Source: Lytechinus pictus (taxonomy: Eukaryota). Taken from it: DNA of 64,000 bases. The stretch spans positions 6,016,001 through 6,080,000 of the forward strand of contig NC_087245.1 of assembly GCF_037042905.1 (NCBI RefSeq). The letters run 5' to 3'. Both the position numbers and the translations under genes were made by a program. Below, in pieces: positions 31,128 to 49,044 of this stretch (positions are counted from its first letter, which is position 1; each line of letters starts with the position of its first letter). The notes below the pieces were generated by a model. It worked only from the letters and a program-made list of their open reading frames with translations, searched no databases and had not been told where the DNA came from.

Positions 31128-32336
31128 TCATAGTTTACAACACTTCATATTACAAGCCCAACGATCAAAAAGCAGAAAATGTCGAAATTTTCGCCGAAAG
31201 TGCACATTAGTGGCGGCATATATGAACGGGTTAATAAATGAAATGCACCACACGAGAGAATTTGTGATCTCCCAACTGAGCGTAGACACACAACTGTCAC
31301 CACAAATGGCATACATGATGGTGGTTACTTGGATAGGCAACCAACAGATCAGGAAACCTCCTACAAGAATGGCAAGGACAACAGCGGCTTTACGATGTCT
31401 TGCCAATGTTCTTTCCTTTGTTTCCGAAATGTTGCCTATTGCATTGTTACCTGATGTCCGTTCATTTGCCCTTCCTTCGATAGTGTCAGCGACTAGATTA
31501 GATGAGGTGGCGATCCGATCTTCCTCGTTTTGATTATTCAAAACATTTCCAGATTGAACGACATTTCTGTTCTCTGAAAAATGGGTGGATTGTTCCTGAT
31601 TTCTAGAAATGGATAGAGTCAGTTGGTTTGTAAGGGGGCTCGGTCCCACAATACCCTTCGATCGCCGTTTGATATTGACATATACGGCTATGTTCATGAT
31701 TAGCAAGGCTGTAAGCGGGATGAAGAACTCTAGAACATTCACGAGAACTGTTCCACCAAGGCTGTATGTAAATTCCATTTCACAGTTATAAGCATAATTT
31801 ACAGAAGACATCCCAGTTACTGGACTCCACGCAAATGCAAGTACAGTATACCATGTAAAAACAACTATCCAGATGCCAAGTACAATTAGTGTCACCCTTT
31901 TATTGGTCTGATACGTCTGATACTGGACCCCCATTGTCAATAGACAGTACCGGTCCCAACTAATGAGTACCATGGTCAAAACAGACACCACACTCACCGT
32001 ATAGTCCGTAATCAACCAAACCTTGCAAAGGACTTCACCAAATGACCAGTAACCTTTGATGAGCCATGTAAGATTAATTGGCCACATGAAAGCTCCTACG
32101 ATAAAATCAGTTACGGATAGATTTAAAATGAAGATATTAGCCACATTAGCACGGATGCGATTACTTCGGATATAAGCAGCATTCACCATGGTATTCCCCA
32201 ATACTGTCACGCATGCTATGATAGAAATAATCAAAGGAACTGTTGCCAACCAAACATTTGAGTTAGGTTTTTCATAGCTGTATTCATAAGAATAAGAAGT
32301 GCTCTCGGATGAATAATCATTCATATTTCGTGCCAT
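31128..32336 (-). CDS. Intronless class A aminergic GPCR, histamine H3-like, 402 aa
   Basis: Seven hydrophobic segments; GN (TM1), NLSVTD (TM2), CKVWLITDY with D3.32, SWDRY, LEFFIP (TM5 Glu as in H3/H4), CWLP, NPFIY. First ATG at 32336. Confidence 0.93.
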   Translation of the reverse strand: MARNMNDYSSESTSYSYEYSYEKPNSNVWLATVPLIISIIACVTVLGNTMVNAAYIRSNRIRANVANIFILNLSVTDFIVGAFMWPINLTWLIKGYWSFGEVLCKVWLITDYTVSVVSVLTMVLISWDRYCLLTMGVQYQTYQTNKRVTLIVLGIWIVVFTWYTVLAFAWSPVTGMSSVNYAYNCEMEFTYSLGGTVLVNVLEFFIPLTALLIMNIAVYVNIKRRSKGIVGPSPLTNQLTLSISRNQEQSTHFSENRNVVQSGNVLNNQNEEDRIATSSNLVADTIEGRANERTSGNNAIGNISETKERTLARHRKAAVVLAILVGGFLICWLPIQVTTIMYAICGDSCVSTLSWEITNSLVWCISFINPFIYAATNVHFRRKFRHFLLFDRWACNMKCCKL

Positions 32337-37581: not shown

Positions 37582-37619
<38 letters not shown>

Positions 37620-37622
<3 letters not shown>

Positions 37623-38623
37623 AGCCGAACCGACTTTCTTTCCTGACGAGCTGGTTCGTTTCGGCTGCAATATACAACCAGTTGATGTAAAGTCCGTCTT
37701 TCTTCACTTCTGACTCTTTACTCCTTCACAATATCTTATATCATATCTCGTGGAACCGCACAACCATGTTGAAGACCGAATACCCAGCATTCAGTATTTC
37801 CGTAATTTCAGTATCTTGGTAAGAACTTTCAAGCATCCTCACTCATCTCGGAATCTCGGTAAGATCAGTAATTCCCGTCTATTCTCTCGACTCAGTACTT
37901 TCCGTATCTTCTCTCGAGTCAGTATTTTCAGTATCTCAGGAAAGTCGGTATTTTCCGTACTTCAGTAAAGTCAGTATTTTCCGTACTTCGGTAAAGTCAG
38001 TATTTTCCGTACTTCTCACTTTTTCCAGTAAGTACTTCCAACACTTTCGTGCTTCTGCTTTTCAGACCATGCATTCTGTAGCTCCGTACTCAATATAATG
38101 ACAGGCATGAAAACGAAGTATTTCTTTCTTCAAACTTTACTAGAATACATGCTTACCCTGGCGCAGCAGGATCAAACAGGACTTGAGCAGAGTTTCAGGC
38201 AGAAATTACTACTTGTAGGCCTAATAGCCTGGTTTGTGATCGAGCATAAAGAAGACCTATATTGATCTAGCTCATCGATTGAGGAGGGAGCTTGTCAGGC
38301 CATACAATTTTATCACTATTTAAAAATAGTTAAAGTCATAGAATAAATCTTTTCAGTAAGACAATGGTGATTGTCACTTATTTTGTGTATCCAAACAGTG
38401 TGAAATTATTAAACATAAAGAGCTAAAACAATCATACAGTTGTAAACTTCGATACTTCTCAGCAAAAAGGCATAATTACATTTTTACAGAAAATCACCAC
38501 ATAATCGATTACAAGCGATTACTGAATTTCGCTATACAACTATAAATATGGGTTAAAAATTATTCTAGTCTTTGTCGTTCCAAAACAACACTGATAATTA
38601 AATAAACCTTTCATTTCGTTACA
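37620..38623 (-). repeat. 3' LTR
   Basis: TGTAGCC...CGTTACA; 3 substitutions versus 45759-46762 by manual comparison; three ~26-bp tandem units at 37941-38015. Confidence 0.97.
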
Positions 38624-38638
38624 CAACTCCCTCCTTCG
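38624..38638 (-). other. Polypurine tract
   Basis: GAAGGAGGGAG on minus, 3 nt from the 3' LTR. Confidence 0.8.
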
Positions 38639-39021
38639 AAAAGCTCGGTCCCCGAGCTGTCCAATTTCCTAGCAAAGAAACACTTGCAAATTCAGTTTCT
38701 TTACATTTTGTAACAATTCCATAAGAAATTATCATGTTTAATATGAGCAAGATAACCACTCCGCATTTTCTAATTTCAAACTTCCTATGGATATAACATT
38801 CGAGATGATTTTTTTTTCCTTCCATCTGAGTTTGTAAACAATATTTCTAAAGATGAACTAAACTACATACAACTTCTATGTACACAAACGTTAACATCAT
38901 CATACATTAAAAGGCTACAACAAACGATGCAGAATTTTCTTCTCAAGAGTCCTTTTCCGTTTTGTTTAATTCTGCATTTTATGCAAGAGTCTTTTGAGAG
39001 TCATTTTCAGTTTATATAGAA

Positions 39022-39768
39022 TTATGGTTCATCCGGCACTCTTTTGATTTCTTCTGTGAAAATTTCAACGAGCTCTCCTTGTTTGGTGATATATCTTTCA
39101 GTTTTACGTGTAAGGATCACATCTCTGGGTATTTTGATGGATGATGTGGTATACTCCAAAACCGATCCCCCATCATGTCCAGCTTCCCTCAGCTTAGCTG
39201 TCAGATTCCTGACGCGCTTCCGGAGTTCTCCGTCTTCCTCTGTCTGGCAACTGGCGTCGCAGCACCTTGAAGGAGTCTTCTCTGCAGATCTAAATCTTTG
39301 GTGAGATTTCCCTCGGTCGTTCCGATGAGAAGATTGAGGTGTATTAGATGCGGGTGACCGAGAGCGGCTTCTGCTTCTTCGTCGAATGACACTTCTTACA
39401 GACCTTTCCGGACTTCTTGATGACCTAGGTGCTGAGTGGGAATATATTCCGCTATCCCTAGGAGATCTCGGGCTCCGGTGTCGGAATGGTGACCTGTCTA
39501 AACGGGACCTAGATTCCGGAGTGTGAACTGGAGTTTTTCCATACTTTCTGGTTGGGACTGGCTCTGCATGGGTCGCTTCATGTTTTTCCAAGTCGCCCTT
39601 CCTTCCACATCTGTAATCGCATTTGGTGCATCTGAACCTTTTCACATGACATTCCCGGTGATGGCGATTAAGCTGTGCCAGTTTCTCAAACGTTTTGCTG
39701 CATTCCCCACAGGAAAATTCATTGTGTGATACTTTGCTGGAAATGCTGATCTCGTCGTCACTCACCAT
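39022..39768 (-). CDS. Gypsy ORF3: two C2H2 zinc fingers + RS-rich region + short coiled coil, 248 aa
   Basis: Open from ATG 39768; FSCGECSKTF..L..H....H and FRCTKC...L..H...H; RSPRSP, RRRSRSRSRSP; lies between the pol stop and the PPT. Confidence 0.85.
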   Translation of the reverse strand: MVSDDEISISSKVSHNEFSCGECSKTFEKLAQLNRHHRECHVKRFRCTKCDYRCGRKGDLEKHEATHAEPVPTRKYGKTPVHTPESRSRLDRSPFRHRSPRSPRDSGIYSHSAPRSSRSPERSVRSVIRRRSRSRSRSPASNTPQSSHRNDRGKSHQRFRSAEKTPSRCCDASCQTEEDGELRKRVRNLTAKLREAGHDGGSVLEYTTSSIKIPRDVILTRKTERYITKQGELVEIFTEEIKRVPDEP

Positions 39769-39968
39769 CTTCTGCAATAAAAATTGGAGAAGAGCATAAA
39801 ATTGGTCATAATTCTGGGCCCGAAATTCGATTTAATTTGTAGCGTGAAACAAAACAGCTGAATTTCATATTCTTCATCTTATTTTACATCTAAACGACAG
39901 AGTGCATGGTCAAAGCAGAAATACGTTTGTTGTTGGTGAATAATCAATCAACTGTGGTCGTTGTAAGT

Positions 39969-42900
39969 TTAGTTGTTATTGGTTGTTCTGAATTGCCATA
40001 CTGGAAGCTCAACACCTTGGTATTTCTTCATGCGATCTGCATGGACCACAAGTGGTAGAGATCTAGGAGATTGTTGAAGACGAAATGTGACAGCAGAGAG
40101 CTTCGAAACGATAAGAAACGGTCCGAGCCATCGGGGTTCCAATTTTGGAGATACTCCTTTTTTTCTAGTTTTCTTTCTGAGCCACACATATTGCCCCACG
40201 TTGAAGTCGGCCTCGGATGCCCTTCTGTTGTATAGAGTGCGTTGTCGGCTTCCAGCATCCTTTAGGTTTCTTCTTGCTCTTTCATGTACTGTCCGTAGTG
40301 TATCTCTGAGATTGAAGGCGTAGTCAGTATTAACTTCTTCATCTAGTGGGGTGGGCGGCATTACCAGATCTATTGGTAAGGTGACTTCTCTTCCTAGCAT
40401 AAGCATGTTCGGAGTTTCTCCAGTGGACTCTTGAGGACTGCTCCGGTATGCTGCTGTGGCAAAGGGGATATATTTATCCCAGTCACGTTGATGCGACTCT
40501 GAATCCATCATAGAGGCAACCGTGTTGAGAAGAGTCCGATTAAATCTTTCAATTAGGCCATCGGACTTCGGGTTATAGGGCGTTGTCCGAGTCTTCTTTA
40601 CACCCATCAGGCGGCATACCTCTTTGAATACATCCGACTCGAAGTTTCGGCCCTGGTCAGAATGGATGACTGAGGGGACTCCGAATCTACAGAGGACTTC
40701 CTTCACTAGCTTTTCTGCCACGGTGTCGGCTCGTTCATCAGGTATAGCAAATGCTTCCATCCATTTAGTGAAATAATCCCCAACAACTAAGACATATTTA
40801 TTGCCATTTGTAGATTCGGGTAACGGACCAAGGATGTCTAGGGCTATACGGTCCATTGGAGATCCACTTATTTGTTGTTGCAAGGGTGCTCTGGTATGTA
40901 CTCCGCTAGCTTTTCTTTTTGCACAGATGTCGCACTGGCGTATTCCAGATCGGAAATCTTCTGTCATCCCGACCCAGAAATACTTCAATCGTGCTTTCTC
41001 GAGGCACTTCTTGATGCCGAAATGGCCTGCGGTAGTAGCTGAATGCATTTCTTTCACCATCTCTTGTACCATGACTCGGGGCACCACAAGTTGCCACCTG
41101 GTTATTTCCCCATCACTTGACTCCCACCTGCGGTAGAGCACTTCATTCTTGATGTGTAGTGAATCCCAGTATTCTAAGAGACGCTTAGCTTCTCTTGGCC
41201 AGGCAGATGTTTGGGCATCGCTTGGTTTCTGCCCATCCAGTTTGGCCTGTACTACCGGCTTGATCCCGACATCACTTCTCTGTTGGTCTTTGAGTTCTTT
41301 TTGTTCTTCCTCAGTATCAACTGATAATATCCGTACTTGTTCTGGATCTGAGTCTGCTTTGCTATCTTCACGCCCGCACTGCTTACATGGTCGTCGGGAC
41401 AAACTGTCTGCATTACTATGGTTCCTTCCAGGTCGGTGAATGATGTCCATGTCGTACTCTGAAATAACCTCAAGCCAGCGGGCAAGTTGTCCGGCGGGTT
41501 CTTTGAAACTTGTCAACCACCTGAGAGATCTGTGATCGGTTCTCACAGTGATATGACGTCCATATAAGTACTGGCGAAAATGTTTCAAGAAGATGACGAT
41601 GGCAAGTAATTCCTTCCTAGTGACACAATAGTTTCTTTCAGTTTTCTTGAGTGTCTTGCTTGCGTACGCAATTACTTTCTCTTGCCCATCCTGGATCTGA
41701 GACAAGACTGCACCTACTGCAAAATCACTAGCATCAGTGTCCAGAATCATCTGTCCATCGGGCTCAGGGTATGCTAATATGGGCTAAGTGGTGAGTCTCT
41801 CCTTAAGCTGATCGAAAGCTGACTGGCATTCTTCTGTCCAATCAAAGTGTCTGTTCTTTTCCATAAGCTGATGCAAAGGTCTGGCGATCTCTGCAAATCC
41901 CTTGACATAACGTCGGTAATAGGATGCTAAACCCATGAAGCTCCTGAGCTCTGATACAGAAGTTGGGTAATCCCAGTCACGTACAGAGCTTATCTTCTCT
42001 GGATCTGTGCTCACACCTTCAGCCGAGACGACGTGTCCGAGATATCGTACACTTCTACAGAACAGATGACACTTTGATGGTTTCAGTTTAAGGCCTGCTT
42101 CTTTCAGCCGTTGGAATACCATTCTCAGCCTTGTCAGTTCTTCTTCTATTGTTCTGCCATACACGATGACATCGTCCAGATACACAAGCAAGATCTCCCA
42201 CTTTAAACCGGCTACCACTCGGTCCATCAGCCTTTCAAACGTGGCCGGCGCATTACATAGCCCGAAAGGCATAGCGCGCCAGGTATATAACCTTCCATTC
42301 GCGAAGAATGCAGATTTCTGTCTTGCCTGTTCGTCCAATTCCACTTGCCAATATCCACTGGCTAAGTCTAATGTGGAGAACCACTTCGCCCCGCCTAACG
42401 CATCTAAGGTGTCACTTATTCTTGGTAGCGGGTAAGCGTCTTTAATGGTGCTAGCATTTAGTTGGCGGTAGTCAACACAAAACCGCTTGCTTCCATCCTT
42501 CTTGGATACCAACACTACATTTGATGCCCATGGGCTAGAAGTAGGTTCTATCAAACCATGTTGCAGCAAATCCTGAACTTGCCGTTCAATCTCTTCCCTC
42601 TGTTGGGCTGGATATCTTCTATGTGCTTGTCGAAACGGTGGTGTATCTCCGGTGTTGATGCTATGCTGCACATAGTCAGTTCTCCCAATATCAAACGAAC
42701 CCTTCGAAAAGATATCACTGAAGTCCCCTAGTAACTGTGATATGGATTCCTGATATTCTACTGGGACATTCTGCATGGTTCTAGCGAATAGATCAGTCAG
42801 GTGTTCTGGTATGCCAGTCGTAGGTTGTTTACCACATGAGTCCAGGCCCGTGGTTTCCTCTTTCTTCAGAGATGTCATACTAGCTACACAAGTTCCTTTC

Positions 42901-43437
42901 TTGATGACTCTATGTTGTTGGGTTGTGTTGAGAATCCGTACAGGGAGGATCTTTTCCTCGGCGCTTACAACAGCTCGTGCAACCATCAAACCTTTACCGA
43001 GTAATTCCGTACCATCTCGCGGTCCTTCCAGTAAAGCCGAACCACTAAGGAACTGAGTGTTCCTAGCTTCGCCTGGTAGAATGACTTCACAGCCGGCCGG
43101 AATAGTACTTGTTTGCTGTGCAACAATTCTACAGCAAAATGAATTCCCTTCGTGATCTTGGCATGCTATGGTTCCCTTCGGAGTTCTCAACTCCAACATT
43201 CTGAGATCTAGTACCACATTCATCTGGATGAGTAAGTCCAGTCCAATGATTCCTTGATTCTTCAGCGCAGCTACTATGACTTCGGAGGCCGCCGCCATAC
43301 CTCCAATTTCTAAGACGATCGATGCTCTCCCCATTGTTTCTAGCGGTGAACCGTCTGCCTGGTAAACCATGTCTGTAATTCTACGAAGAGGAGGTCTCCT
43401 TGACTCAATGATGTTGCCGTATACCTCGTTTGATACT
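39969..43437 (-). pseudogene. pol: Gypsy pol (rest of protease, RT, RNase H, integrase) with one premature stop
   Basis: RFCVDYRQLN, LDLASGYWQ, MPFGL, YLDD; DTDAS, TDH; HHCC, LDILGP, SDQG, ERFNRT, GPF. In-frame TAG at 41784-41786. Confidence 0.95.
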
Positions 43438-44270
43438 CATATCGAAAACTTGCATACAGTGTACCGGACATGTAAAAACATAGCAGACGACGTTTGCAGA
43501 CCTCGCGATCATCGTATGACTAGTGGTGTAGAATGTTCCATTGTGGCTTTATGGGGGAGATAGCATTACAGAGGGATAAAATGTATACACAAATAATGTT
43601 TCAGCGTTGATTCGCAATATTTTGTGTCAATTTCATAAATTATCGTTGTTTGAACGTTTAAAACATCATTATGAAGTGAAAGGATTAAGCAAAACTTTAT
43701 TTTCAGACTCACCTATACAGTGGTAAGCTAGGATGCACCCCTCGTATACATAATGGACCCGTCACGAGTGTAGGTTTGCTCTTCGGATATCACTATCACA
43801 AAGAAAATCTCCTCTGATTTGATGATAAAAGTGCACTATTTCCTTATTAACCAATCTCCATGGTTCTTTCATGAGTATTTGCCTTACAATCTGCCCTTTA
43901 TTATAATCTGGGCGGAAATTCTTGATACCATCATCCGCCGATGTGACGACGGATATAATCCTACCGGGTACTATAAAAATGCCCCCCAAACCCATTATCC
44001 CAATACATATTCCTGACTATGGATGGTTTTGAGTGGTTTTAATGTAATAAAGTGCCATATTTCCCACCAGTTGAATTACAAAAAAATTATAATCATCTGA
44101 TAGAAGAAGTTGTTAACATTCATTTCAGGGGGGCGGAAATTCTATATGAATCAACGCTTGTCCTTGATACACATTTGTTTGTGAAAAAAGGGTATGATGC
44201 AAGGAAATTCTGCGTGTTATAAGTGTGCGCGCGTGCAGCGAGGACCTTCTGTCCGCTAGTTTTCCATATG
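43438..44270. mobile_element. ~833-bp TIR insertion interrupting the Gypsy protease
   Basis: TIR CATATCGAAAACTTGC / GCTAGTTTTCCATATG (14/16); splits DTGSSHT from VSNEVYG. Confidence 0.85.
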
Positions 44271-45717
44271 GAGTATGTGAAGAACCAGTATCTATCAGAA
44301 ATTTTACTGACTGCCCGTTAAGCTTCGCATTAACGAACAAACCCTGTCTCTTGGCATCCTCTGATGTTCCAACTCTAGCCTGGCCGGGTTCAGGATTGTT
44401 CTCTCCTAAATTTCCGTCATCCGGCTCTTGCTCTTTATTACTGACTTCTTCATGGATATCATCCGTGTTGGATTCAGATGTGATCATGGAGACATGAGCA
44501 TTTGACTTTGGACAATTCTTGATGAGATGTCCCGTTTGGTTACAGTTGTGACATCGTCTCTCAGTAGTCTGATCACTTGTTTTCTCCTTCCTAGGATGTG
44601 GACACTTGTTAGCAAAATGGCCAGATTCTCCACAATTGTAGCAATTGTTGTTTTCCCGGTTGGTCTGCTGTCCAGCTCCATGAGATGCTGTATTCTGTCT
44701 TGGCCTTTCAGTAGTTTTGGATTCCATTTCCAGAATGAGATCTTTAAGGAACTTTTTCATTCTCACTTCCCATGAGGCTTCTTCAGTAGGGGAAGGGTTT
44801 CCGGCATTATCCCCTGAAACAGCTCGGCTGTACCTGGTTTGTCGGTAGTCCCTCCTGTCTCCTTCCATCCTTAGGAACGCCTCCGTATTCAGGGCAGCTT
44901 CTATTGCCTCGTCCAATGATCTTGGTTGCGAGCGAAACAGTCCTTCCCGAATCTTACTATCCATAATTGCATCTAGGAAATGCCCCCTCGCCAACCGGTC
45001 TTGTCCGTCTTCATCGAATTCGGGATAGGCGAGAGCCGTCATATCTCTAACACTCTGTCCTAATTCCTGGAGGGTCTCTTTAGGCTTTCTCCGTCTCTGT
45101 CGCAACTCGGCGAGATAGACTTCCGCTTTTCCACCTGGACCATATCTTTTTCTCATTCTGTCAACCAGTTCACAGTAACTCAGTCTTCTTCCCGTTTTCT
45201 GGGTTAGCAATTTAACAGCAGAACCTCTTAAGCTGGCTGCCAGATATTTCATCGCTTCGGATTCTCCCCATTCATTCACTACAATGCATGCCTCAAAATG
45301 GTTGATATAGTCTTCAACTGGCGAGCGACCATCGAACCGATCTGGTATCACATTTGGTTTCTTTGATCTTACATCAGGATAATTCGGTTGACTTGACAAA
45401 GGATTTTCTGATTCGGTTCTCAACTGTGCTGTTGGTCTGTGTTGTGTATTTGATAGCCTGGTTCCGTGAAATTCTTGTTCAAGACTAGTGGGTTGCGGTA
45501 CTTGTGCTGTTGCTCCGAAGTTTTCAATTGGTGAAGACTGGAACTGAACTCTTGGCCCTTGCCTACTGCTTGCCTCATCAGTCCCCCATGATGGCGTGAA
45601 CCCCACACTGGTTCGCAACTCCGCCATCATCTGGTCAATCTCCGCCATACTGCTTTCCAACCTCTCCATCACTTCAGCTGGCGATACCGCACGCCCTCTT
45701 TGTCCTCTGACATCCAT
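44271..45717 (-). CDS. gag: Gypsy gag with two CCHC knuckles, running in frame into the protease start
   Basis: ATG 45717 just after the PBS; PDRFDG..F..NEW..L.G.A; CYNCGESGHFANKC, CHNCNQTGHLIKNC; FLIDTGSS. Confidence 0.93.
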
Positions 45718-45738: not shown

Positions 45739-45756
45739 ATCCCACTTCTGACACCA
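45739..45756 (-). other. Primer-binding site, tRNA-Leu type
   Basis: TGGTGTCAGAAGTGGGAT, 2 nt from the 5' LTR; complementary to the metazoan tRNA-Leu 3' end as I recall it. Confidence 0.85.
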
Positions 45757-45758
45757 CG

Positions 45759-46762
45759 TGTAGCCGAACCGACTTTCTTTCCTGACGAGCTGGTTCGTTT
45801 CGGCTGCAATATACAACCAGTTGATGTAAAGTCCGTCTTTCTTCACTTCTGACTCTTTACTCCTTCACAATATCTTATATCATATCTCGTGGAACCGCAC
45901 AACCATGTTGAAGACCGAATACCCAGCATTCAGTATTTCCGTAATTTCAGTATCTTGGTAAGAACTTTCAAGCATCCTCACTCATCTCGGAATCTCGGTA
46001 AGATCAGTAATTCCCGTCTATTCTCTCGACTCAGTACTTTCCGTATCTTCTCTCGAGTCAGTATTTTCAGTATCTCAGGAAAGTCGGTATTTTCCGTACT
46101 TCAGTAAAGTCAGTATTTTCCGTACTTCGGTAAAGTCAGTATTTTCCGTACTTCTCACTTTTTCCAGTCAGTACTTCCAACACTTTCGTGCTTCTGCTTT
46201 TCAGACCATGCATTCTGTAGCTCCGTACTCAATATAATGACAGGCATGAAAACGAAGTATTTCTTTCTTCAAACTTTACTAGAATACATGCTTACCCTGG
46301 CGCAGCAGGATCAAACAGGACTTGAGCAGAGTTTCAGGCAGAAATTACTTCTTGTAGGCCTAATAGCCTGGTTTGTGATCGAGCATAAAGAAGACCTATA
46401 TTGATCTAGCTCATCGATTGAGGAGGGAGCTTGTCAGGCCATAAAATTTTATCACTATTTAAAAATAGTTAAAGTCATAGAATAAATCTTTTCAGTAAGA
46501 CAATGGTGATTGTCACTTATTTTGTGTATCCAAACAGTGTGAAATTATTAAACATAAAGAGCTAAAACAATCATACAGTTGTAAACTTCGATACTTCTCA
46601 GCAAAAAGGCATAATTACATTTTTACAGAAAATCACCACATAATCGATTACAAGCGATTACTGAATTTCGCTATACAACTATAAATATGGGTTAAAAATT
46701 ATTCTAGTCTTTGTCGTTCCAAAACAACACTGATAATTAAATAAACCTTTCATTTCGTTACA
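45759..46762 (-). repeat. 5' LTR
   Basis: 1004 bp, adjacent to the PBS. Confidence 0.97.
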
Positions 46763-46949
46763 ATATATATATGGGATCATAGTTTCACCAAACCTCCGAT
46801 CGAAGACCGTATATATTTGATTTATATCCGTCATCGGAATTAAATACATCAGATAGTAATGTAGAATGAATAGCAATCTTGAAGAGACGATTAATTAATA
46901 CTTTTATTAGCTTTCATGTGGCCCCTGCATGGCTATCACATACGCGCTT

Positions 46950-47697: not shown

Positions 47698-48826
47698 TGT
47701 GTGTGTGTGTGTGTGTGGGTGCGTGCGTGTTTGTAAGCATTCCCCTCTTGGTGCTATGATTACTCTCTTTTTTTAATTCCTCCAATTCAATAGGCCTGAT
47801 TGTAGCTTAGTTTTCGGTCTCATTTCTTTTCAGGCTTTTACTATAATTCCGATCATCATTTCCGAATAATTATTCATTTCAAATATTATGTTAAACATGG
47901 ATAAAGTCTGGGTCAAAATTCAAGTAAAGGTCAAGTAAAAGAGATTATTATTTTACTGGTATATCGTCATACACATGTCGCTGAAAGAACTCTAAAGCTT
48001 GAAAGATCACTCGTGATAGACCCAACAGGTACACTATCCCATGCATGTCTTTATTGATAGACCTATAATTAAAAGCTTTTGTGACAACAGGCAAAGAGTA
48101 CTTAGGGGCTCTATATAGACTCACACAACTCATCGATTGCGGAAATAGATATAAAGCTATTTAAAAAAAAACCTGGTTCCATGACATTTGCTCCGGCAAC
48201 AATTGTTCCGATGTGAAATCTCCACGTTAAGCATGTTAAGCCAAACATAAAACCTAACCTCCGAAAAAAAATAAACCCTAATCCTAAATCTTTACTTAAT
48301 TCTGAACTAAAAAGTATATTACACTCCTAACTCTTACCCTATTCCCTTTAAGATATCAAGACCGGAGCAAATGGTATCTCTATAATCAAGAGGAAAATCC
48401 TCTCCCTGAACCACAGCTAAAAATTTACTTGATTTAGAACCGTTACACATTTTCTGTATAGTATTCACTGTAAGTTTTTACATCATCATTATTGCACTAA
48501 AATTACAGGAATGTACCAGAGTAGAGAAAGATGTTTTTAAATGAAGAGATGTTGCAATCAGCATGCAAAACTGGAGAAGATAGTTAGACAAGCAAGAATA
48601 AAGGAGGTGTCACTACTAAATAAAGGTTATTTGGGTCCCCAGAAATTCGACAAGCAATTAAAACAAATGAAAAAGGAGGGTTCACCACAAAATGTAAGTC
48701 AAAAATGGTTTCACTAAAGAAATATAGGTCTTTCTGGTTACATTTCTCCATTTTGCAACGCTTACCAGAATTCCAGAGGGTGCTGCCTATGAAAAATGTC
48801 ACGCAGCTTGCCAGGGCCATGTTCAT

Positions 48827-48885
48827 CGATAGATAGATAAATAGACAGACATATTTGTATATATACAGATGGAAAGATAGATAGT

Positions 48886-48932
<47 letters not shown>

Positions 48933-48933
48933 T

Positions 48934-48988
<55 letters not shown>

Positions 48989-48989
48989 T

Positions 48990-49044
<55 letters not shown>

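What the first reader, a model, noticed from the sequence alone, without database searches (positions are those of the whole stretch)
39022..39768. Gypsy element carries a third ORF in the env slot encoding a C2H2 zinc-finger / RS-domain protein
Seen: between the pol stop (39969) and the PPT there is an intact, sense-strand 248-codon ORF. It has two tandem C2H2 fingers (39568-39717), a long Arg/Ser/Pro-rich block (RSPRSP, RRRSRSRSRSP), a short predicted coiled coil (ELRKRVRNLTAKLRE) and a distinct C-terminal segment. It has no signal peptide or TM helix, so it is not Env. It is open even though gag-pol has two lesions. Established: Gypsy ORF3s are usually env-like; C2H2 fingers bind nucleic acids; RS domains mark splicing/RNA-export factors. 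Inference: this is a dedicated accessory regulator, e.g. an LTR trans-activator, a Rev-like splicing/export switch or an anti-silencing factor, giving a non-enveloped retrotransposon a complex-retrovirus-like organisation. I cannot tell from sequence alone whether this has been described.
Basis: partly seen in the sequence, partly recalled or inferred. Interest (0 to 1): 0.88.

Follow-up and report, generated by a model that had tools for sequence, protein, structure and literature searches.

The report
Gypsy retrotransposon zinc-finger accessory gene
A young sea-urchin Gypsy retrotransposon carries, in the place where retroviruses keep env, a conserved gene for a small zinc-finger and arginine/serine-rich protein; it is probably a regulator of the element itself, an extra gene of a kind known from a few other retrotransposons but not in this form.

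Summary
Window 39768..39022 (- strand) is an intact 248-codon ORF between pol and the polypurine tract of a 9,143-bp Ty3/Gypsy element, whose 1,004-bp LTRs differ at 3 positions. The protein has two C2H2 fingers, a roughly 100-residue disordered RS-rich linker and a conserved C-terminal helix plus three-strand domain with no recognisable fold. It has no signal peptide or TM helix.

It is not a one-off capture:
- ORF3 is intact in 6 of 11 family loci in this genome.
- It sits in the same slot in a second Gypsy family (Pol 65%, ORF3 33% identical).
- Homologues at 35-61% identity exist in other, unnamed sources.
- All eight zinc ligands are invariant in 6 of 6 aligned proteins.
- Variants shared between copies are depleted in non-synonymous changes (6 of 13 against 0.775 expected, P=0.014).

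In all three lineages with DNA, a top-ranked splice-acceptor-like site lies 1-4 nt before the ATG. No RNA evidence was obtained and function is untested.

The "intact despite gag-pol lesions" argument carries no weight. A non-Env regulator in the env slot has a precedent in Cer1 CERV, so this is a new variant of a known kind. Interest is moderate to high.

The parts
45759..46762 (-). 5' LTR (1,004 bp, TG...CA)
   Evidence: Alignment of the two LTR regions: 3 mismatches, no indels.
45739..45756 (-). Primer-binding site TGGTGTCAGAAGTGGGAT, 2 nt after the 5' LTR
   Evidence: Read. The identical 18-mer follows the LTR of the second family (L031).
44125..45717 (-). gag frame (two CCHC knuckles, start of protease). 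It runs into the nested insert at 44270 and ends at a stop inside it.
43438..44270 (.). 833-bp nested repeat, absent from the other copies (lesion 1)
   Evidence: In all 7 other copies that span this point, element positions 2492 and 3326 are adjacent. RNA reads lie on the opposite strand, with loose ends of differing sequence at both borders.
39969..43370 (-). pol (RT, RNase H, integrase), with one in-frame stop at 41786-41784 (lesion 2)
39772..39793 (-). Splice-acceptor-like site TCTTCTCCAATTTTTATTGCAG, ending 3 nt before the ORF3 ATG
   Evidence: Ranks 1 of 716 AGs of the element by a crude home-made acceptor score. The equivalent AG ranks 2 of 755 in L031 and 2 of 115 in L056. Inference only; no junction reads.
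39022..39768 (-). ORF3, 248 aa
39568..39717 (-). Two tandem C2H2 zinc fingers (residues 18-67)
   Evidence: All 8 ligands are invariant in 6 of 6 aligned proteins.
39241..39543 (-). Disordered Arg/Ser/Pro-rich linker (residues 76-176)
   Evidence: Length and sequence vary between lineages but the composition is kept.
39025..39240 (-). Conserved C-terminal domain: a helix followed by three beta strands
   Evidence: No clear fold relative.
38627..38637 (-). Polypurine tract GAAGGAGGGAG
37620..38623 (-). 3' LTR
37892..38015 (-). 26-bp tandem repeat (4.7 copies) in the LTR, with 3 copies of AGTACGGAA on the sense strand. The same array is in the 5' LTR at 46031-46154.

Best explanation
ORF3 is a genuine, selectively retained accessory gene of a lineage of sea-urchin Ty3/Gypsy elements.

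Proposed mechanism (inferred):
1. ORF3 is translated from its own ATG on a singly spliced subgenomic mRNA. The acceptor of that mRNA lies 1-4 nt upstream of the ATG.
2. The protein enters the nucleus through its basic RS region.
3. Its two C2H2 fingers tether it to a specific sequence of the element's own nucleic acid.
4. The phosphorylatable RS linker and the small C-terminal domain engage host splicing or export machinery.
5. This sets the balance between unspliced genomic RNA (gag-pol, packaging) and spliced ORF3 mRNA. The role would be CERV/Rev-like, played by an SR-protein-like adaptor.

Shown: the ORF, its domains, its slot, its recurrence and its conservation.
Inferred: splicing, nuclear location, the target and the effect.

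My odds are about 0.85 that it is a retained functional accessory gene, about 0.6 that it is expressed by splicing at that acceptor, and about 0.35 that it acts on RNA processing or export. The confidence given is for the whole statement.
For: Part of the element:
- ORF3 lies inside LTR-LTR, with a PBS, a PPT and 4-bp target duplications.
- Full or partial copies with different flanks carry it.

Recurrence:
- ORF3 is intact in 6 of 11 family-1 loci.
- A second family (L031; Pol 65%, Gag-PR 43%, ORF3 33% aa identity) has the same fingers, RS linker and C-terminal domain between the pol stop and the 3' LTR.
- Four further protein clusters at 35-61% identity come from other sources, with 14 members in all (1, 4, 4 and 5); 11 of the 14 are full-length.

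Constraint:
- All 8 zinc ligands are invariant in 6 of 6 proteins.
- In the 3 deep pairwise comparisons, dN is 0.30-0.44 in the fingers and 0.48-0.62 in the C-terminal domain, against 0.82-1.03 in the linker. Synonymous sites are saturated.
- Among 7 clean family-1 copies, variants shared by 2 or more copies are 6 non-synonymous to 7 synonymous (0.46 against 0.775 expected, one-sided binomial P=0.014). Singletons are 9 to 0, as expected for neutral decay after insertion.

Expression signal:
- The best or second-best acceptor-like AG of each sequence lies 1-4 nt before the ATG in 3 of 3 lineages with DNA.
- A is at position -3 of the ATG in all three.

Architecture:
- DNA-type tandem fingers.
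- An RS linker with 20 RS/SR dipeptides.

Precedent:
- Cer1 CERV is an env-slot ORF made from a spliced mRNA. It is nuclear and required for genomic RNA export (PMC10309623; abstract and passages).
Against: - In 3 raw RNA-seq runs of the same species label (about 6% of each run read) there were no reads over 38363-39967 and no joints. Only a handful of reads fell on gag-pol, so expected coverage was about 2 reads and the blank is uninformative.
- No convincing, positionally conserved splice donor was found in the leader or early gag of either family.
- The only full-length family-2 copy found has a 1-nt frameshift and a TGA in ORF3.
- Family-2 deletion derivatives that lack the fingers have multiplied.
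- One family-1 insertion has lost ORF3 (L032 = L033, one event).
- At shallow depth the non-coding spacers are as conserved as ORF3, at about 99%. The pairwise omega of 0.38 rests on 16 changes.
- Two fingers alone give limited specificity.
- No NES-like motif was found by a simple pattern.
- The family is small: no members beyond 5 clusters among 5.8 billion proteins.
- Genomic context could be checked in only 2 lineages. L056 is too short to show pol.
Confidence: 0.35

Rival explanations
1. ORF3 is a DNA-level trans-activator, analogous to foamy-virus Tas or HTLV Tax in role. The finger pair would bind the tandem repeats in U3 of the LTR, and the RS and C-terminal parts would recruit transcription machinery.
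For: - The fingers are of the classical DNA-binding tandem type.
- Both families have tandem repeats in the LTR. The units are otherwise unalike (26 bp x 4.7 against 22 bp x 8.3) but share the sense-strand 9-mer AGTACGGAA. It occurs 3 times per LTR in family 1 and 2 times per LTR in family 2, and nowhere else in the 64-kb window or the 10-kb locus. Shuffles expect 0.20 and 0.04.
- The LTRs are otherwise not alignable by blastn.
- The recognition-helix positions of finger 2 (R at -1, D/E at +3, K/R at +6) are kept in all 6 lineages read.
Against: - The 9-mer was picked post hoc. My rough estimate is about 0.004 for two random units of 26 and 22 nt sharing a 9-mer on either strand.
- The motif could equally be a host-factor site.
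- RS domains are typical of RNA-processing proteins, not of activators.
- There is no binding evidence.
Confidence: 0.25
2. ORF3 is a functionless passenger: a fragment of a host zinc-finger or SR-like gene captured once and carried along.
For: - C2H2 fingers and RS tracts are abundant in the host.
- NCBI names the protein as a host zinc-finger or SRRM2-like protein.
- Some copies lack or have broken ORF3.
- No RNA was seen.
Against: - ORF3 has stayed in the same slot while Gag fell to 43% and Pol to 65% identity.
- The ligands are invariant and the C-terminal domain is conserved.
- Shared variants are depleted in non-synonymous changes.
- The acceptor-like site and start context are conserved.
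- No host locus carries the C-terminal domain. All hits to it in this genome are in Gypsy copies or fragments of them.
Confidence: 0.12
3. ORF3 is an integration-targeting factor. The fingers would read (AT)n or ATAT target DNA and the C-terminal domain would hold the integrase or pre-integration complex.
For: 9 of 11 family-1 loci are flanked by ATAT, most within longer AT-rich or (AT)n sequence; the other two (L022, L025) have CTAT. L022 has CTAT on both sides, which gives a 4-bp duplication.
Against: - Target choice in known LTR elements is usually set by integrase (established knowledge).
- Finger residues with R, D and K at the contact positions do not suggest A/T reading (recalled recognition code).
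- The target preference of family 2 could not be read, because L031 has an extra partial LTR upstream.
Confidence: 0.08

Closest known systems
CERV of Cer1, a Ty3/Gypsy element of C. elegans (PMC10309623; abstract and passages read)
   Same: [quoted passage not shown] CERV is made from a spliced mRNA and is a nuclear regulator of the element's own RNA. It has a cysteine-rich, possibly zinc-binding, loop and is controlled by phosphorylation. Here the slot is the same, an acceptor-like site precedes the ATG, and zinc fingers plus a phosphorylatable RS tract are present.
   Different: No sequence or domain relation is evident: this protein has C2H2 fingers, an RS linker and a small alpha/beta domain. 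The CERV env-slot ORF is only the C-terminal half of a larger spliced protein, whereas this ORF appears to start at its own ATG, because the acceptor phase is not conserved between lineages. The CERV sequence was not fetched, so homology was not tested directly. Function here is untested.
Non-Env ORF3s of bdelloid rotifer LTR retrotransposons (GDSL esterase, DEDDy exonuclease; PMC5408684, passages read) and additional ORFs of plant LTR retrotransposons (PMC7264820 and PMC9289625, search listing only)
   Same: Family-specific extra ORFs downstream of pol that lack TM domains and are thought to have auxiliary roles. That paper describes such ORF3s as typically expressed from spliced messages.
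   Different: Those are enzymes or unrelated proteins. No zinc-finger/RS protein is mentioned: 'zinc' and 'C2H2' each occur 0 times in PMC5408684.
Retroviral post-transcriptional and transcriptional regulators (Rev, Rex, Tas, Tax; recalled, with Rev as summarised in PMC10309623)
   Same: Small, basic, nuclear accessory proteins made from spliced mRNAs that act on the element's own RNA or LTR.
   Different: No homology. Those belong to Retroviridae. No NES-like motif was found here.
Host zinc-finger plus RS-domain splicing factors such as ZRANB2/ZNF265
   Same: Two N-terminal zinc fingers followed by an RS domain.
   Different: Those fingers are of the RanBP2 type and bind single-stranded RNA. 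Here the fingers are C2H2, an extra conserved C-terminal domain is present, and the gene is carried by a retrotransposon.

Membership tests
Ty3/Gypsy (Metaviridae) LTR retrotransposon | Paired LTRs ending TG...CA, with a PBS, a PPT and a target-site duplication | tested here: met
   The LTRs are 1,004 bp with 3 mismatches. The PBS lies 2 nt after the 5' LTR and the PPT 3 nt before the 3' LTR. A 4-bp duplication (CTAT) is readable in L022.
Ty3/Gypsy (Metaviridae) LTR retrotransposon | Gag with CCHC knuckles, and pol in the order PR-RT-RNase H-IN | tested here: met
   Pfam zf-CCHC, Asp_protease_2, RVT_1, RT_RNaseH, Integrase_H2C2 and rve are found in that order. The frame is a single uninterrupted one of 1,684-1,687 codons in 3 of 11 loci.
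C2H2 zinc finger (PF00096) | C-x2-C-x12-H-x3-5-H with a profile match above the curated cut-off | tested here: met
   29.8 bits against a cut-off of 25.2, with 2 stretches. Both patterns were found. The ligands are invariant in 6 of 6 proteins.
Envelope glycoprotein (retroviral or errantiviral Env) | Signal peptide and transmembrane or fusion segments | tested here: not met
   The highest 19-residue hydropathy mean is 0.37 and the N-terminus is hydrophilic. There is no Env Pfam match at E<=0.1.
SR proteins (SRSF family) | N-terminal RRM(s) plus a C-terminal RS domain | tested here: not met
   There is no RRM match. An RS-like tract is present (20 RS/SR dipeptides), but it is internal. The protein is SR-like in composition only.
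Cer1 CERV-type regulator | Encoded in the env slot of a Gypsy element | tested here: met
Cer1 CERV-type regulator | Translated from a spliced subgenomic mRNA | tested here: inconclusive
   A top-ranked acceptor-like site is present in 3 of 3 lineages, but no junction reads were seen and no clear donor was found.
Cer1 CERV-type regulator | Sequence or fold homology to CERV | not tested
   The CERV sequence was not fetched. No Pfam family covers the C-terminal domain, and fold searches gave no clear match.
Cer1 CERV-type regulator | Nuclear location and a requirement for genomic RNA export | not testable with these tools
   This needs experiments.

The most novel reading that the evidence does not exclude
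A deuterostome Gypsy lineage has evolved its own sequence-specific SR-like regulator. The finger pair would recognise a short motif kept in the LTR repeats or their RNA copy (AGTACGGAA is the candidate). The RS tract would hijack the host SR-kinase, spliceosome or export machinery to switch between spliced ORF3 mRNA and unspliced genomic RNA. That would be an origin of 'complex retrovirus' regulation independent of both Retroviridae and nematode Cer1, in a phylum where a 2026 survey found no env-carrying Gypsy elements (PMC13524379, passages read).
Probability: 0.25. Interest if true: 0.8.

Novelty: new variant of a known kind. Interest (0 to 1): 0.6.

Why it matters
Extra genes in LTR retrotransposons show how simple retroelements acquire the regulatory layers seen in complex retroviruses. 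So far the only experimentally dissected non-Env case in an animal Gypsy element that my searches turned up is Cer1 CERV.

This case offers a compact, domain-legible protein (fingers, RS tract, small folded domain) in young elements, and uninterrupted copies exist in the genome of a laboratory sea urchin. The questions "what does it bind" and "does it control splicing or export" are therefore directly testable.

There is also a practical point. Genome annotation currently names these ORFs as host zinc-finger or SRRM2-like genes, which mislabels transposon genes as host genes.

Tried and rejected
RNA evidence:
- No listed holder of the element is on record as RNA.
- Laying 3 raw RNA runs plus one contig set gave no reads on ORF3 and no joints. 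Depth was too low to mean anything.
- One 351-nt contig of a run only guessed to be RNA crosses 39649-39989 unspliced. It is not interpretable.

Self-association:
- The C-terminal domain submitted as two copies to complex prediction gave no verdict.

Fold searches:
- Whole model: Foldseek against PDB gave nothing at E<=0.001, BFVD nothing at E<=0.001, and VIA-align wide a best Z of 4.8 to a COMMD-like chain.
- C-terminal domain alone (pLDDT 76.8): best Z 4.6 to an NTF2-like chain and best Foldseek E 0.045.
- No fold assignment was made.

Wider homologue searches:
- Representative library: besides P0001, P0005 and P0033, the other 147 of the 150 listed hits are to the finger region of unrelated, mostly much longer proteins.
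- 'Longer' search with residues 165-248: none.
- C-terminal profile, 'longer': the same 4 clusters.
- ESM Atlas: no usable hit.
- Earlier findings of this scan: nothing by sequence, and 8 unrelated notes by words.

Context in other lineages:
- The one metagenome locus (L056, 1,547 bp) has only 368 bp upstream of the ORF and no detectable pol.

Other points:
- Donor search with a rough, recalled 5' splice-site matrix found no conserved strong site.
- The GTGAGT right after the ATG is not conserved in L031 or L056. I take it as coding sequence only.
- The 'ORF3 intact although gag-pol is broken' argument is rejected as a matter of target size.
- The ORF3-deleted pair L032/L033 is rejected as evidence for ORF3-independent transposition. 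The two loci are 99.88% identical over 10 kb including flanks, so they are one duplicated locus.
- A first count of singleton variants was inflated by misaligned truncated copies and was replaced.

Literature:
- 7 searches were sent.
- No paper holds 'LTR retrotransposon' + 'C2H2' + 'ORF3' together.
- Repbase, Dfam and GyDB could not be searched, so a deposited consensus with this ORF may exist.

Full report
**1. The observation**

On the - strand an ATG at 39768 opens a 248-codon frame that ends with TAA at 39024-39022. The stop-to-stop frame is 269 codons. In 1000 dinucleotide-preserving shuffles of the 1,345 bases between the pol stop and the polypurine tract, the longest frame averaged 101 codons and never exceeded 242. 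The other five frames of the real sequence carry 13-32 stops.

The protein has these parts:
- **Fingers.** Pfam finds zf-C2H2 (E 6.9e-7, above the curated cut-off, two stretches). All 36 PDB sequence matches fall on residues ~10-73 and are classical tandem DNA-binding fingers such as Aart, ZNF568, CTCF and Ikaros.
- **Linker.** Residues 76-176 are 22% Arg, 24% Ser and 10% Pro, with 20 RS/SR dipeptides and 9 S/T-P sites. AlphaFold2 predicts them disordered, with pLDDT below 50.
- **C-terminal domain.** Residues 179-243 are predicted as one helix followed by a three-stranded antiparallel sheet. pLDDT is about 80 in the whole-protein model and 76.8 when the domain is folded alone.
- **Not Env.** No hydrophobic segment exists: the highest 19-residue hydropathy mean is 0.37. 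The protein is not an envelope protein.

**2. The element**

The ORF lies in a 9,143-bp Ty3/Gypsy element on the - strand.
- The LTRs are 46762-45759 and 38623-37620. Each is 1,004 bp, TG...CA, and they differ at 3 positions with no indels.
- A primer-binding site lies 2 nt after the 5' LTR. The polypurine tract GAAGGAGGGAG lies 3 nt before the 3' LTR. Both flanks are (AT)n.
- Pfam gives CCHC knuckles, protease, RT, RNase H and integrase, in that order.

- An 833-bp insertion at 43438-44270 is absent from all 7 other copies that span the point. It behaves as a separate repeat in RNA data.
- One in-frame stop lies at 41786-41784.

**3. Copies in the same genome**

The window lies in an 812-Mb, 368-contig assembly. 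NCBI-named proteins 96-100% identical to ORF3 are from Lytechinus pictus. Of 11 family-1 loci examined (the window and 10 others):
- ORF3 is intact in 6.
- It is damaged or truncated in 3.
- It is deleted in 2, but those two loci are 99.88% identical over 10 kb including flanks, so they represent one event.
- Three loci have a single uninterrupted gag-pol frame of 1,684-1,687 codons followed by an intact ORF3.

ORF3 being open in the window copy is therefore unremarkable. It is a 0.75-kb target next to a 5-kb one in a very young insertion.

The best matches to ORF3 outside Gypsy copies are 29-36% identical. They cover only the fingers or low-complexity parts of long multi-finger host genes. 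No host locus carries the C-terminal domain.

**4. A second family and other lineages**

Locus L031 holds a different Gypsy family.
- Its Pol is 65% and its Gag-PR 43% identical to family 1.
- Its 1.46-kb LTRs are 99.5% alike.
- The primer-binding site is identical to that of family 1.
- Between its pol stop (7076) and its 3' LTR (from 8424) lies a homologue of ORF3, starting at ATG 7285. It has two fingers, an RS tract and the C-terminal domain, and is 33% identical to ORF3.
- In this copy the homologue is broken by a 1-nt frameshift in finger 1 and by one TGA.

Other family-2 loci are internally deleted derivatives that keep only the RS and C-terminal part.

Outside this genome, a 5.8-billion-protein collection holds four further clusters at 61, 50, 39 and 35% identity (5, 1, 4 and 4 members). 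Most members are full-length, and they come from Logan, ENA and JGI assemblies without names. The alignment shows conserved fingers, with all eight zinc ligands invariant in 6 of 6 proteins. The linker is variable and indel-rich but always RS-rich, and the C-terminal domain is conserved.

More sensitive or differently aimed searches added no members and no fused forms. The family is narrow.

Context could be checked only in the two families of this genome. The one fetchable foreign contig (L056, 1,547 bp) is too short to reach pol.

**5. Selection**

Deep comparisons among family 1, family 2 and L056 have saturated synonymous sites. Even so, dN is 0.30-0.44 in the fingers and 0.48-0.62 in the C-terminal domain, against 0.82-1.03 in the linker.

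Among 7 cleanly aligned family-1 copies:
- Variants present in two or more copies, which arose in replicating lineages, are 6 non-synonymous to 7 synonymous. That is 0.46 against 0.775 expected for random changes (one-sided binomial P=0.014).
- Singletons, which arose after insertion, are 9 to 0.
- Shared variants in gag and pol are likewise depleted in non-synonymous changes (10 non-synonymous to 21 synonymous in gag; 0 to 2 in each pol part); their singletons are also depleted, unlike those of ORF3.

The numbers are small. At this depth the non-coding spacers are as conserved as ORF3. The best pairwise estimate (omega 0.38) rests on 16 changes. Taken together with retention across families, I read this as real but modest evidence of constraint.

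**6. Expression**

In family 1, family 2 and L056 a pyrimidine-rich tract ending in CAG lies 3, 4 and 1 nt before the ATG. I used a crude score of my own: pyrimidine count, YAG and an AG-exclusion zone. By that score these AGs rank 1 of 716, 2 of 755 and 2 of 115 among the AGs of their sequences.

The number of bases between the AG and the ATG differs modulo 3 between lineages. Translation therefore probably begins at the ORF's own ATG, which has A at -3 in all three. I infer a spliced subgenomic mRNA, as for env genes and for Cer1 CERV.

This is not shown:
- I found no conserved strong donor.
- Three raw RNA-seq runs of the same species label, each about 6% read, gave no reads on ORF3 and no joints. 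They also gave only a handful of reads on gag-pol, so the blank is uninformative.

**7. What it most likely does**

The anatomy is a specific nucleic-acid-binding module, then a long phosphorylatable RS tract of the kind that targets proteins to the splicing and export machinery, then a small conserved domain of unknown fold. That domain's best structural scores are Z 4.6-4.8, with Foldseek E no better than 0.014.

An element that must make both an unspliced genomic RNA and a spliced ORF3 mRNA has the regulatory problem that Rev and CERV solve. I therefore put an RNA-level adaptor first (about 0.35).

An LTR-binding trans-activator comes second (about 0.25). It is supported by the 9-mer AGTACGGAA, shared between the otherwise unlike LTR tandem repeats of the two families (a post hoc observation). 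It is also supported by conserved contact residues in finger 2.

A functionless passenger (about 0.12) and an integration-targeting factor (about 0.08) remain possible. A self-association test of the C-terminal domain gave no verdict.

**8. Comparison with what is known**

Non-Env ORFs downstream of pol are known:
- Enzymatic ORF3s in rotifer elements (PMC5408684, passages read).
- Additional ORFs in plants (PMC7264820 and PMC9289625, listing only).
- Most pertinently, CERV of Cer1, a nuclear protein from a spliced mRNA that is needed for export of genomic RNA (PMC10309623, abstract and passages).

A 2026 survey reports env-carrying Gypsy elements in most animal phyla but not in echinoderms (PMC13524379, passages read). 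One search found 0 papers with the three terms together. Repbase, Dfam and GyDB could not be searched. Public annotation names these ORFs as host zinc-finger or SRRM2-like proteins.

**9. Verdict**

It is a new variant of a known kind, and my interest score is 0.6.

Noticed in passing
window 37616-37619 and 46763-46766; loci L021-L028, L032, L033: Family-1 insertions sit in ATAT or (AT)n sequence. 9 of 11 loci have ATAT at a readable flank and the other two (L022, L025) have CTAT. L022 has CTAT on both sides, giving a 4-bp duplication. This suggests a strong target preference for AT-dinucleotide repeats.
   Followed up: partly
window 37953-38013 and 46092-46152; L031 1981-2038 and 9314-9371: The LTR tandem repeats of the two Gypsy families differ in unit (26 bp against 22 bp) but share the sense-strand 9-mer AGTACGGAA, which is found nowhere else in the window or the locus. 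It is a candidate conserved cis-element. The motif was chosen post hoc.
   Followed up: partly
window 43438-44270: An 833-bp nested repeat interrupts the protease region. RNA reads lie on the strand opposite to the Gypsy element, and reads and contigs continue into several different flanks, so it is a separate multi-copy element that is transcribed somewhere in the genome.
   Followed up: partly
L038, L039, L040, L041, L030/L037, L042 (own genome): Family 2 has spawned internally deleted derivatives. Most of RT-RNase H-IN and the ORF3 fingers are missing, and the remaining pol frame is fused to the RS and C-terminal part of ORF3. At least 6 loci are 86-89% identical to L031 in that part.
   Followed up: partly
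window 45739-45756; L031 about 2549-2566: The 18-nt primer-binding site is identical in the two families although their LTRs are unalignable. From memory it resembles the complement of a tRNA-Leu 3' end; this was not checked.
   Followed up: no
L032 and L033 (contig C11, about 3 Mb apart, opposite strands): The two 10-kb stretches, including the element and its flanks, are 99.88% identical. This is an inverted segmental duplication or an assembly duplicate.
   Followed up: partly
window 31128-32336 (-): An intronless 402-aa rhodopsin-family GPCR gene (Pfam 7tm_1, E 7e-48) lies about 5 kb from the element.
   Followed up: partly
family-1 copies against the window element: The LTRs of other copies are only 91-97% identical to the window's. 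The internal parts of the six best-preserved copies, non-coding spacers included, are mostly 98-100% identical. This suggests LTR exchange between subfamilies or faster LTR turnover.
   Followed up: no
window 48809-48996: A (GATA)n microsatellite lies about 2 kb beyond the 5' LTR.
   Followed up: no
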